Shown: one piece after another, positions 24,001-27,000 of the stretch
How the letters are laid out: each line of letters opens with the position of its first letter
Position numbering within the stretch: the first letter of the stretch is position 1
Assembly (NCBI RefSeq): GCF_056746865.1
Contig: NZ_CM163382.1
Length of the DNA: 64,000 nucleotides
Strand: one strand, 5' to 3'
Position numbers: made by a program

Positions 24001-27000
24001 GCCTTGAAATGCACGATCTTTCCGTCGGTGAAAGTCCGCCCCGGCTAACTCTCGCTCCGACTGGAAGGACAAGAAGCGGTCCAGGAGGTAACAAAAGGGC
24101 TGAATCTCTCCCTGAAACGACTTCTTCAGGAAGTCAACGGGTTATGCGGGCCGTAATGTGAGTGAACACTGAGCAGCCATCGAAATGCCGTCGAGGGTGC
24201 TGACACGCCACAATAACGGGGAAGGCCGACGATGACCGGGAAGAGAGTGAGAAAGGCATCGGTCATACCCACCGGGGTTGTGGTGTCAGCATGCATAACA
24301 ATTGATCGATCGTGCAACAAGAGAAGTCCATAACGATGTCTGTCCGGGTGACGGGCAACAACGCCTCGCGAGGGGGTGAATCGGTTGTTATGGATGGCAG
24401 ATGGGGTGTAGTAGTGAAAATACTGAGTAATGTCAGAGGAGCGAAGGCCCCCTCTTGCAGTACCAGTGTAACATGCAGGAAGAGCCCGGGGATTGCCATC
24501 AGCCTCACAACCCCGCTCGAACCGGTTCAGAACCTACAGAAAACACTACAGGAGAAAGCAAAGTGAACCGCCCCGTGTTTCCTGTTTATCATTTTCTGGT
24601 CAGTGCCGCGATTCTGGTATTCGTGGTGATTTTCTGGCGGACACACCATCGCGACCACCGTAACTGGCTGGCTCTACGGCTATTCGTATTATGCTCTGTA
24701 AACCGTTGGCCATTGCGGATGGTTAAAGGAACAGTTGTGGGGACAACTGACACATTACGTGAAATGCAGCGTTATGAACAACTGAGTCAGCACGGGGCTG
24801 ACAACTGGAAAATCCAGCCGGGAGCACCGTTATATGATACGATTGTTATTGTCACTGGTGAGAATGTGCGCAGGGATTATATGTCAGTGTATGGCTATCT
24901 CGTACCAACCACACCGTGGCTGAATACGGCACCCGGTTTATTTATTGACGATTATACCTTGACAGCCTCCAGTACAGTGTCTTCCCTGAGCCGGACACTG
25001 ATTTATGACTATGAGCAGAACCCTGATTCCGGCAACAATGTGGTGGCGCTGGCAGCAAAAGCAGGATACAGCACATGGTGGATATCCAATCAAGGAAAAC
25101 TGGGGGAGCATGACACACGCATCTCTGTTATTGCTTCTGATGCGGAGCATGCCACTTTCCTCAAGAAAGGCAGCTTCGCTTCCCGTAAAACAGATGACAA
25201 ACTGTTGTTACAGGAAACAGAACGTGCGCTGGCGGATACATCCTCTCCGAAGATAATTTTCCTGCACATGATGGGTTCTCATCCAAATCCGTGTGACAGC
25301 CTTAACTCCTGGCCGAATAATTACCTGGAGCAGTATCCCCGAAAAATTGCCTGTTACCTCGCCAGCATCAGTAAACTGGATAACTTTCTTGGCCAGCTTG
25401 ATGGTATCCTTCGCCGGTACTCACATCATTTCGCCATGCTTTACTTTTCTGGCCTTGGGCTGTCGGTCAGCGACAGTGCCAATCCTGTTCATCATTATGG
25501 TCATGTGCAGGGAGGCTACAGTGTGCCACTGATTATTACCGCCAGTGACATAACGTCTCATCAGCCCGTCAGTAGAAAAATCAGTGCCCGTCATTTCGCA
25601 GGTATTTTTCAGTGGATGAACGGTATTTGTACTGAAAATATACCGCCATTCAATCCGCTGACAGACGAAGATAATTAACCTGTTATGGTTTTTAAGGGAG
25701 AGAGGAATATACCGGCAGACAGTTTGAAACCTCAGCCACTTATTCTTCCTGATCACAGGTAATCATATATGGCAGACTGTAATACAGTCGCTTGTACTGA
25801 AAAGTATTCTGTATAAAATATCCGTATTCATATCAGCACAAGGGACCATCAAATCCCTGCAGCACTCCTTACGTCAGTTATCCCGCATCACCCTGTGAGT
25901 ACAGGATTTTTTATGAGGTTACTTTTTTATTGAATGTATATAAATAATGAATAACCGCGGATTCTGATAATCCCCCCTGCAGGGAGCGGTAAATAGTAAA
26001 TACATCAGTTAATACCGTTTGTCTTTTTTAACAAAGAAAATAATCCTAGAATAATTCCCGGGCATTTGCCCGGGATGATTACTGTTTTAATGGATTATTA
26101 ATCTTTGCATATTCAAATGGACTGATAAACCTTTCTCTGTTTACATCCAGAAAATCGGCCCACCACTGTAGCATAAGTCGACGTTCTTCCAGATGTTCGG
26201 CTTTATGGATATACGCAGCACGTACACCATTACGCTCCTGATGGCTCATCTGACGTTCAGCCGCTTTATCTCGTGCTGTTCTGGTCTCAATACTTCCATG
26301 CCGTTGCAATTACCTCTTAAACCATTCCTTACCATTTTCATGTCTTCGATAAGAAATCTTCATCATGCATGATCGATTTTGTCGATCGATTCGATCGAAT
26401 TTTCTCTTTTTACCCTGTCTTTTGCATGGTTTTAAAATAAGCAACCTTCTTTATCGTGTGGGTAAGAACCAACGGAGATGATTGAAATGAAAAAGGTTAT
26501 TGCTGTTTCAGCGCTTGCTATGGCGGGCGTATTTTCAGCCCAGGCTCTGGCTGATGAGAACAAAACTGGCTTTTATGTGACTGGTAAAGCCGGTGCTTCA
26601 GTTGTGGCTCAGACTGACCAGCGCTTCCGTCAGGACTTGGGGGAGGATGTTTATAAGTATAAGGGCGGCGATAAGAACGATACTGTATTTGGTGCAGGCC
26701 TTGCGGTGGGCTATGATTTTTATCAACATTACAATGTTCCTGTGCGCACGGAAGTGGAATTCTATGGCCGCGGAGCTGCGGACTCCCATTATACACTGGA
26801 TACATGGCATTCTCCGATGGGGAATGGTGGTCGGGAAGACACACAGAACAGGCTCAGTGTGAATACCCTGATGGTGAACACGTATTATGATTTCAGAAAC
26901 AGCAGTGCATTCACTCCATGGGTATCTGTTGGCCTAGGTTATGCACGAGTACATCATAAGGCGACATATACTGATACCTCCTGGAATGAATCTGGCGAGA

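What the first reader, a model, noticed from the sequence alone, without database searches (positions are those of the whole stretch)
26079..26309. Integrase 3' fragment marks an internal module junction (nested or tandem island)
A 76-aa remnant of a tyrosine integrase C-terminus lies in the middle of the island, about 14 kb from the intact integrase, followed by a perfect palindrome CCCGGGCATTTGCCCGGG (26057-26074). This suggests a second integrative element was once integrated here and that the pheU island was built by serial accretion.
Basis: partly seen in the sequence, partly recalled or inferred. Interest (0 to 1): 0.35.

Follow-up and report, generated by a model that had tools for sequence, protein, structure and literature searches.

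The report
Integrase gene stub at island seam
This is a dead 181-base tail of a P4-type integrase gene beside the tia adhesin gene in an E. coli pheU island; it marks a seam where homologous recombination, not a fresh integration, joined two island modules, which is ordinary mosaic-island biology.

Summary
Window 26079-26259 (- strand) is the last 181 nt of a 421-aa P4-type integrase gene: 92% amino-acid identity to the leuX/pheV integrases, but only 45% to the island's own pheU integrase. RefSeq already annotates it as a pseudogene.

It does sit on a module junction, but there is no attachment-site relic here.

1. The break at 26259|26260, where integrase homology ends and tia-upstream DNA begins, is the same in seven other tia/hek contexts at selC, pheU, pheV and leuX. 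It is detectable in 893 of 5426 complete E. coli genomes. This truncation is therefore old and travels with the tia cassette.

2. The stub in this window is a hybrid. 26079-26157 carries the leuX (KpLE2-type) allele, with 6.2 kb of leuX-island DNA to its left at 99.97% identity. 26175-26259 carries the tia-cassette allele. At 27 informative sites the split is perfect (11 then 16), placing a homologous crossover in 26158-26174.

3. The "palindrome" is an 8-bp-stem, 4-nt-loop hairpin three bases after the stop codon. It is the integrase gene's own terminator-like 3' element.

Serial accretion may explain the old truncation, but that cannot be tested here. Interest is low.

The parts
26079..26259 (-). 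Integrase pseudogene stub (int'). It is homologous to the last 181 nt (about codons 362-421 plus the stop) of 1266-nt P4-type integrase genes found at leuX and pheV. It keeps the box-II His and the catalytic Tyr (..MSHQERNGVRAAY..). It lacks Arg-I, Lys and the HGFR (His-X-X-Arg) motif.
   Evidence: PGAP pseudogene
26260..26309 (-). The non-integrase part of the mechanical 76-aa ORF, including its TTG start. This is tia-upstream DNA, not integrase.
   Evidence: Homology to every full-length integrase ends at 26258-26264.
26079..26157 (-). The leuX-allele half of the stub. It is continuous with the leuX-island segment to its left.
   Evidence: 0 mismatches to the L002 leuX island across 25426-26174. 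11 mismatches to the selC tia module L006 within 26084-26157.
26158..26174 (.). Crossover interval: 17 bp that are identical in both parental types.
   Evidence: 27 informative sites partition as 11 leuX-type then 16 tia-type. P about 1.5e-7.
26175..26259 (-). The tia-cassette (pheV-type) allele half of the stub.
   Evidence: 16 mismatches to L002 within 26175-26241. 0 mismatches to L006 from 26158 onward. 54/54 identity to the full-length pheV integrase of strain C289.
26056..26075 (-). GC-rich hairpin (8-bp stem, 4-nt loop) three nt after the integrase stop codon. It is terminator-like and inherited with the integrase 3' end.
   Evidence: It is identical after K-12 intB and after the SMS-3-5 and 52148 full-length integrases. 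A different but structurally equivalent, longer hairpin sits at the same position in TUM9868 and in the 52148 stub.
19988..26157 (.). KpLE2-type leuX-island segment: ythA (20219-20344), nanY (20387-21505), nanX (21517-22734), a transposase fragment, a group II intron fragment, a yjgX-like phosphoethanolamine-transferase pseudogene (24578-25762), and the intergenic region.
   Evidence: 99.97% identical and colinear with the DNA downstream of the intact leuX integrase in strain SWHEFF_68. K-12 KpLE2 has the same order.
26260..30298 (+). tia cassette: tia upstream region, tia (26487-27233), phosphoethanolamine transferase (27408-28910), a small frameshifted ORF, and a TPR protein (29270-30304, - strand). 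It ends at an IS1 remnant.
   Evidence: 99.4% identical to the selC (L006) and pheU (L007) cassettes. The same cassette occurs in the ETEC tia-leoCBA island.
39310..40494 (-). Intact resident pheU integrase, 394 aa, of a different lineage (45% identical to the stub over 38 aa).
40671..40746 (-). tRNA-Phe (pheU), the island's attachment site. It is the only copy of its 3' end in the window.

Best explanation
The feature is a non-functional 3' stub of a 421-aa P4-type tyrosine integrase gene. It is a fixed passenger of the tia/hek adhesin cassette, whose order is: tRNA, intact integrase, (TPR), phosphoethanolamine transferase, tia, int'.

The truncation at 26259|26260 happened once, long ago. 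It is now found with that cassette at selC, pheU, pheV and leuX. This step is shown.

In the lineage of this window the stub then served as a patch of homology. A homologous crossover occurred between it and the 3' end of an intact KpLE2-type leuX integrase gene, within 26158-26174. That crossover attached at least 6.2 kb of leuX-island DNA (terminator hairpin, yjgX pseudogene, nanXY, ythA) to the left of the tia cassette. In the nearest non-recombinant relatives, an IS1 element sits directly left of the stub. This step is also shown.

The resulting composite is now found, with an identical hybrid stub, behind three different tRNA genes. This is shown. Most likely the exchange involved horizontally acquired DNA and a second crossover or an IS-mediated join at the left end (19988, next to an IS1203-like element). 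This part is inferred.

The stub encodes nothing useful. The hairpin is the integrase gene's own terminator-like element. Both points are inferred.
For: Identity of the stub:
- BLASTP gives 60/65 identity to residues 358-421 of the leuX integrase.
- NF007246 matches with E = 1.7e-7.
- Identity to the resident integrase is 45%.

Shared breakpoint:
- All aligned tia/hek loci diverge from full-length integrases at the same column.
- Matches of full-length integrases end at window 26258-26264.
- A junction-spanning 120-mer is covered at 80% or more in 893 of 5426 genomes.
- The cassette plus stub is seen at selC, pheU, pheV, leuX and in the ETEC tia-leo island.

Hybrid structure:
- Against the leuX island L002 there are 2 mismatches in 19988-26174 and then 16 in 26175-26241.
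- Against the selC cassette L006 there are 11 mismatches in 26084-26157 and then none from 26158 to 26500.
- The 11/16 partition of informative sites is perfect, P about 1.5e-7.
- The left flank is colinear with tRNA-Leu, int, yjgX', nanXY, ythA.
- An identical hybrid junction occurs at pheV, at selC and at pheU (this window).

Non-coding status:
- The HGFR motif and everything upstream of it are missing.
- Divergent copies carry an internal stop and two single-base indels.
- In the pap-tia context the stub is reduced to about 58 bp.
Against: - The donor and recipient genomes, the location of the second crossover, and the order of events among the selC, pheU and pheV copies are not resolved.
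- The leuX locus of one carrier strain lacks the KpLE2 proximal segment and has a 3'-truncated integrase. An intragenomic transfer therefore cannot be excluded.
- Not every Hra-family locus has the stub. APEC E14033 has an unrelated upstream region. Only 893 of the 1756 genomes with an Hra-family gene show the junction at this search sensitivity.
- No expression data were available, so a function for the ORF or the hairpin is excluded only by inference.
Confidence: 0.85

Rival explanations
1. Serial accretion. A second integrative element inserted in tandem at this position. The stub is its decayed integrase, and the DNA to its left (yjgX', nanXY) is that element's original cargo.
For: - The stub has the same orientation as the intact integrase.
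- A distinct cargo follows each integrase.
- There is a precedent for two P4-integrase elements in tandem at leuX in E. coli W (PMC3032704).
- As an explanation of the old truncation only, not of the present junction, it is plausible. I put that weaker version at about 0.45.
Against: - No tRNA 3'-end repeat exists anywhere in the window, allowing up to 2/16, 4/22 or 6/30 mismatches.
- The breakpoint is shared with cassettes at four tRNA loci that have quite different left flanks: IS1, restriction-modification genes, TerB/helicase genes, and papG.
- The stub is a hybrid whose crossover separates the left cargo from the truncation point. The left cargo was therefore not attached when the integrase was truncated.
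Confidence: 0.1
2. Short-patch gene conversion. The stub's 3' half was overwritten by the cell's leuX integrase allele, without any exchange of flanking DNA.
For: Stub alleles are mosaic in several lineages. For example, the ETEC and 52148 stubs carry leuX-like 5' portions.
Against: leuX-type identity does not stop at the end of the gene. It continues for 6.2 kb to the left at 99.97% and is colinear with a leuX island. The nearest unconverted relatives have IS1 there instead.
Confidence: 0.03
3. The 76-aa ORF is expressed and acts as a small integrase-tail protein, for example by interfering with integrase assembly and so stabilising the island.
For: - The ORF is open in this lineage.
- It retains the C-terminal tail and the catalytic Tyr region.
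- The stub persists in 893 genomes.
Against: - The start is a TTG inside unrelated DNA, and no promoter-like site is found on the - strand upstream.
- There is an internal stop in the 52148/NCTC86 copies and two single-base indels in the ETEC copy.
- The stub is cut to 58 bp or less in pap-tia contexts.
Confidence: 0.03
4. Internal duplication of the island's own integrase gene.
For: Both are P4-type tyrosine integrases in the same orientation.
Against: The stub is only 45% identical to the resident integrase over 38 aa, against 92% to the leuX/pheV 421-aa family.
Confidence: 0.01

Closest known systems
IntB, the P4-type integrase of the KpLE2 phage-like element at leuX in E. coli K-12 (and the intP4 integrases of GI-pheV)
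   Same: - The stub is 92% identical to the last 64 residues.
- The same stop codon and the same hairpin follow it.
- The same downstream genes are present: yjgX pseudogene, nanX/yjhB, nanY/yjhC, ythA.
   Different: - Only the last 181 nt survive.
- There is no tRNA-Leu, no 5' 1085 nt, no Arg-I, Lys or His-X-X-Arg.
- The 5' 85 nt of the stub come from a different, pheV-type allele.
The tia/hek/hra 'head' cassette of tRNA-associated pathogenicity islands: the ETEC tia-PAI at selC, LAA module I with hes at pheV, and PAI II536 / hek at leuX
   Same: - The order is intact integrase, phosphoethanolamine transferase, then an Hra-family adhesin, within 3-5 kb of the tRNA. The LAA paper places the integrase gene 3.3 kb and pheV 4.8 kb from the stop codon of hes (PMC5539235).
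- The tia, transferase and TPR genes here are 88-99% identical to those cassettes.
   Different: - The papers read here do not mention the integrase stub upstream of the adhesin gene.
- This window lacks leoCBA.
- It has 9 kb of sugar-utilisation genes inserted between the TPR gene and the integrase.
Mosaic, modular tRNA islands of E. coli (GI-pheV: PMC11537424; LAA: PMC5539235; GI-selC: PMC6174562)
   Same: - Modules of different ancestry are shuffled by recombination.
- The same island type occurs at pheU and pheV, which share one integrase type (PMC7686366).
- YjgX/YhbX-type transferases are present at all three sites (PMC6174562).
   Different: Those papers describe module boundaries as IS elements. 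Here one boundary is an integrase remnant with a mapped 17-bp crossover interval.
Tandem P4-integrase elements such as WpLE3 at leuX of E. coli W
   Same: Two P4-type integrase sequences lie in the same orientation, each followed by distinct DNA (PMC3032704).
   Different: Here the second integrase is a 181-nt stub, no internal att repeat exists, and the cargo behind it arrived by homologous recombination.

Membership tests
P4-type tyrosine integrase (functional gene) | Sequence homology to the family | tested here: met
   60/65 identity to residues 358-421 of a 421-aa leuX integrase. NF007246 E = 1.7e-7.
P4-type tyrosine integrase (functional gene) | Full-length protein of about 390-420 aa with N-terminal DNA-binding domains | tested here: not met
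   Only 181 nt are homologous. Homology ends at 26259.
P4-type tyrosine integrase (functional gene) | Complete catalytic set Arg-Lys-His-Arg-His/Trp-Tyr | tested here: not met
   Only the last His and the Tyr (MSH...RAAY) are present. The HGFR motif and everything upstream are absent.
P4-type tyrosine integrase (functional gene) | Lies next to its tRNA attachment site | tested here: not met
   The only tRNA is pheU at 40671-40746. No tRNA 3'-end copy is present elsewhere in the window.
Tandem (serially accreted) tRNA island | A second integrase sequence in the same orientation as the tRNA-proximal one, followed by different cargo | tested here: met
   Both are on the - strand. The left cargo is KpLE2-type and the right cargo is the tia cassette.
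Tandem (serially accreted) tRNA island | An internal direct repeat of the tRNA 3' end (att) between the two elements | tested here: not met
   No match to the 3' ends of tRNA-Phe, tRNA-Leu or tRNA-Sec with up to 2/16, 4/22 or 6/30 mismatches. The region where it would lie is deleted.
Tandem (serially accreted) tRNA island | The cargo behind the second integrase is that integrase's original cargo | tested here: not met
   A crossover at 26158-26174 separates the truncated 5' part from the left-hand cargo.
KpLE2-type leuX element (segment) | Colinear gene order: int 3' end, yjgX, nanX (yjhB), nanY (yjhC), ythA | tested here: met
   99.97% identity over 6187 bp to the leuX island of SWHEFF_68. 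Same order in K-12.
Intrinsic (rho-independent) terminator | GC-rich stem-loop followed by a U tract, immediately after a gene | tested here: inconclusive
   The stem has 8 bp (7 GC) and a 4-nt loop. The tail ATTATTCTAG is only moderately T-rich. The structure is conserved, with compensatory changes, after related integrases. Termination itself was not tested.

The most novel reading that the evidence does not exclude
The integrase stub is not merely a fossil. It is retained because it is a portable homology patch. Any island headed by a 421-aa P4-type integrase can then capture, or be captured by, the tia/hek adhesin cassette through a single homologous crossover. That would explain why the cassette sits at four tRNA loci in front of many different cargos, and why stub alleles are mosaics of several full-length integrase alleles. 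A less likely variant is that the 76-aa tail peptide modulates island excision.
Probability: 0.07. Interest if true: 0.45.

Novelty: already known. Interest (0 to 1): 0.2.

Why it matters
It matters little beyond bookkeeping. The finding shows concretely, to within a 17-bp interval, how modules of E. coli pathogenicity islands are re-assorted: a leftover piece of an integrase gene gives enough homology for RecA-type exchange with intact integrase genes at other tRNA loci. This is a caution for island-typing schemes that read integrase fragments as evidence of independent integration events. It also helps explain why the tia/hek adhesin cassette appears at selC, pheU, pheV and leuX. It does not reveal a new kind of element or mechanism.

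Tried and rejected
- Search for attachment-site relics: the last 16, 22 and 30 nt of tRNA-Phe, tRNA-Leu (leuX) and tRNA-Sec were scanned over the whole window on both strands, with mismatches allowed. Only pheU itself was found.
- Pfam scan of the ORF: no significant hit. NCBIfam was needed to get one.
- Duplication of the resident integrase: rejected at 45% identity.
- GC-content step at the junction: none is visible (0.45, 0.44, 0.42 across it). Composition does not mark this seam.
- Rfam scan of 24000-28000: nothing at the stub or the hairpin. The only hit is an unrelated group II intron fragment.
- Looking outside E. coli for an untruncated ancestor: a scan of genome contigs with a conserved 35-mer of the tia upstream region gave 0 hits.
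- Reciprocal recombination product: the leuX locus of a carrier strain (2017.18.02CC) has a 3'-truncated integrase next to an IS3 fragment. It ends about 273 nt before the stop codon, not at the crossover, so it is not the reciprocal product.
- Literature searches: no paper was found that describes the stub upstream of tia/hek. The library holds only open-access papers, so the original tia-PAI, hek and PAI II536 papers could not be checked.
- My early note that the island was at pheV was wrong and was corrected. The window flank is pheU. pheV applies to strains 165 and 2017.18.02CC.

Full report
**What is there.**
- The window is E. coli DNA.
- The only tRNA is tRNA-Phe at 40671-40746 on the - strand.
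- The DNA to its right matches the pheU neighbourhood (dicD/yjdC, dsbD, cutA, dcuA) at 98.3%.
- An intact 394-aa integrase lies at 39310-40494 (-).
- The reported ORF, 26079-26309 (-), 76 aa with a TTG start, exists.

**Is it an integrase fragment?** Yes.
- It aligns to residues 358-421 of a full-length 421-aa integrase that sits next to tRNA-Leu (leuX) in strain SWHEFF_68: 60/65 identical, E = 1e-40.
- It matches the C-terminal positions 356-395 of 413 in NCBIfam NF007246 (E = 1.7e-7). Pfam gives nothing.
- It is 89-92% identical to the tails of four 420/421-aa integrases from leuX and pheV. It is only 45% identical, over 38 residues, to the resident pheU integrase and to a selC integrase. 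It is therefore not a copy of the island's own integrase.
- It retains the ..MSH.. histidine and the ..RAAY.. catalytic tyrosine. It lacks HGFR and everything upstream of that motif, so it cannot be an active recombinase.
- PGAP already annotates 26079-26264 as an integrase pseudogene in identical copies.
- At the DNA level, homology to full-length integrase genes stops at 26259, give or take a few bases. The first 12-17 codons of the ORF, including its TTG start, are read-through into unrelated sequence.

**The hairpin.**
- CCCGGGCATTTGCCCGGG is at 26057-26074, but it is not a perfect palindrome.
- It is an inverted repeat that forms an 8-bp stem (7 GC pairs) and a 4-nt loop at 26056-26075. 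It begins three bases after the stop codon and is flagged as terminator-like on the - strand.
- The identical hairpin follows the stop codon of K-12 intB and of the full-length integrases of SMS-3-5 and 52148.
- TUM9868's integrase and the 52148 stub carry a different, longer hairpin with compensating changes at the same position.
- It is therefore the integrase gene's own 3' element, most likely a terminator shared with the convergent transferase gene. It is not a junction signature.

**Left of the stub.**
- Window 19988-26259 aligns without gaps to the DNA downstream of the intact leuX integrase of SWHEFF_68.
- The order is: hairpin, a yjgX-like phosphoethanolamine-transferase pseudogene, a transposase fragment, nanX, nanY, ythA.
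- K-12's KpLE2 element has the same order, interrupted by IS2 and IS4.

**Right of the stub.**
- Window 26081-30298 is 99.4% identical to a cassette found next to selC in strain 26561 and next to pheU in strain 23CRST027. That cassette runs: int', tia, phosphoethanolamine transferase, small ORF, TPR protein.
- More divergent versions lie next to leuX in SMS-3-5, next to pheV in strain 52148, next to pheU in NCTC86, and in the ETEC O169:H41 tia-leoCBA island. In TUM9868 the cassette lies beside papG-II with the stub cut to about 58 bp.
- In every one of these, the sequence leaves the integrase reading frame at the same alignment column.
- A 120-nt query centred on the junction is covered at 80% or more in 893 of 5426 complete E. 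coli genomes. 1756 genomes carry an Hra-family gene.
- At least one divergent family member (APEC E14033) has an unrelated upstream region and no stub.
- The truncation is thus an old, single event that travels with the tia/hek cassette. It did not happen in this island.

**The stub here is a recombinant.**
- Against the leuX island there are 2 mismatches in 19988-26174 (99.97% identity), then 16 mismatches in 26175-26241.
- Against the selC tia cassette there are 11 mismatches in 26084-26157, then none from 26158 to 26500.
- At the 27 positions where the two parental types differ, the window reads leuX-type 11 times and then tia-type 16 times, with no exception. The chance of such a partition is about 1.5e-7.
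- The tia-side allele is 54/54 identical to a full-length pheV integrase in strain C289.
- A homologous crossover within 26158-26174 therefore joined the leuX-island segment to the tia cassette.
- In the nearest non-recombinant cassettes an IS1 sits directly against the stub, at window-equivalent positions 26081 or 26096.
- Other stub alleles are also mosaics of different full-length alleles. This suggests the patch has recombined more than once.

**Spread of the composite.**
- The identical hybrid stub with its flanks occurs behind pheV in strains 165 and 2017.18.02CC and behind selC in strain CM2.
- In CM2 it matches window 3074-30298, apart from two extra IS copies in the window.
- The window itself looks like CM2's distal part joined at an IS1 remnant (30297) to the proximal part of the strain-165 island. 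That proximal part is a 9-kb sugar-utilisation cluster plus the integrase.
- pheU and pheV islands are known to share one integrase type (PMC7686366).

**Attachment sites.**
- No second copy of the 3' end of tRNA-Phe, tRNA-Leu or tRNA-Sec exists in the window, even allowing mismatches.
- In intact relatives the tRNA lies about 190 bp upstream of the integrase start. Any att relic would have been in the deleted part, to the right of 26259, not in 25700-26500.

**Interpretation.**
- The idea that a second element integrated here is not supported for the present junction, which is a product of homologous recombination.
- Tandem insertion followed by deletion remains a fair guess (about 0.45) for how the ancient truncation arose. 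Supporting points are the same orientation, the position just beyond a compact integrase-transferase-adhesin head module, and the precedent of two P4 integrases in tandem in E. coli W (PMC3032704). No sequence evidence for it survives.
- A coding role for the ORF is unlikely. One divergent allele, seen in strains 52148 and NCTC86, carries an internal stop, and the ETEC copy has single-base indels. No - strand promoter-like site precedes the ORF.

**Comparison with what is known.**
- Mosaic tRNA islands with recombining modules are well described: GI-pheV (PMC11537424), LAA (PMC5539235) and GI-selC (PMC6174562).
- Those papers note the YjgX/YhbX transferases at all three sites, and the adhesin gene a few kb from the integrase.
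- They describe module borders as IS elements. I found no mention of this stub, but the library lacks the original tia, hek and PAI II536 papers.
- The feature is an annotated pseudogene and an ordinary example of island mosaicism. The mapped crossover is a neat detail, not a new kind of thing.

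Noticed in passing
window 24022-24161 (+): A group II intron D1-D4 fragment (Rfam RF02003, 67 bits against a gathering score of 49, model positions 1-138 of 138). It lies between a transposase fragment and the 5'-truncated yjgX-like pseudogene. It is probably part of whatever destroyed the N-terminus of that gene.
   Followed up: no
window 26372-26398 and 26409-26438 (+): Upstream of tia there are three GATC (Dam) sites within 27 bp, inside a small hairpin (TCGATCGATTCGATCGA). They are conserved in all four tia/hek loci aligned, although the flanks diverge. A promoter-like site (TTTACC-18-TAAAAT) follows. Clustered GATC sites upstream of an adhesin gene recall Dam-dependent phase switches (pap, agn43). 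This was not tested.
   Followed up: partly
window 24576-25749 and 27721-28894: The two phosphoethanolamine-transferase genes, one a pseudogene and one intact, form 1.17-kb direct repeats at 91.6% identity. They bracket the stub and tia. Recombination between them would delete tia.
   Followed up: no
window 30297-30715 and 30716-39278: An IS1 remnant marks another seam. The 9-kb block that follows holds a carbohydrate porin, a GH32 hydrolase, an MFS transporter, an alpha-galactosidase and a LacI-type regulator. This block is absent from the otherwise near-identical cassettes of strains 23CRST027, 26561 and CM2.
   Followed up: partly
window 9705-11015 and 13364-14675: Two extra copies of an IS1203-like IS3-family element relative to strain CM2. 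One interrupts the type I restriction subunit R gene and the other a RhuM-like gene. The type I restriction-modification block (3754-9940) is the same one that lies next to the stub, in inverted orientation, in the SMS-3-5 leuX island.
   Followed up: partly
L010 (strain CM2, selC), L001/L013 (strains 165 and 2017.18.02CC, pheV), window (pheU): The same composite distal island with the identical hybrid stub sits behind three different tRNA genes. The selC copy has a site-specific integrase that differs from the one at pheU and pheV. Large island segments are therefore exchanged between tRNA loci independently of their integrases.
   Followed up: partly
L015 38509-39501 (strain 2017.18.02CC leuX locus): In a strain that carries the composite at pheV, the leuX integrase is itself a pseudogene missing its C-terminus, next to an IS3 fragment. 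The KpLE2 proximal genes are absent from leuX. The only copy of yjgX'-nanXY in that genome is the one attached to the stub.
   Followed up: partly
L001 5974-6129 (strain 165; not present in the window): A second, internal integrase fragment (156 bp, missing both ends) is annotated further out in the pheV version of this island. It shows that integrase debris recurs at seams in these islands.
   Followed up: no
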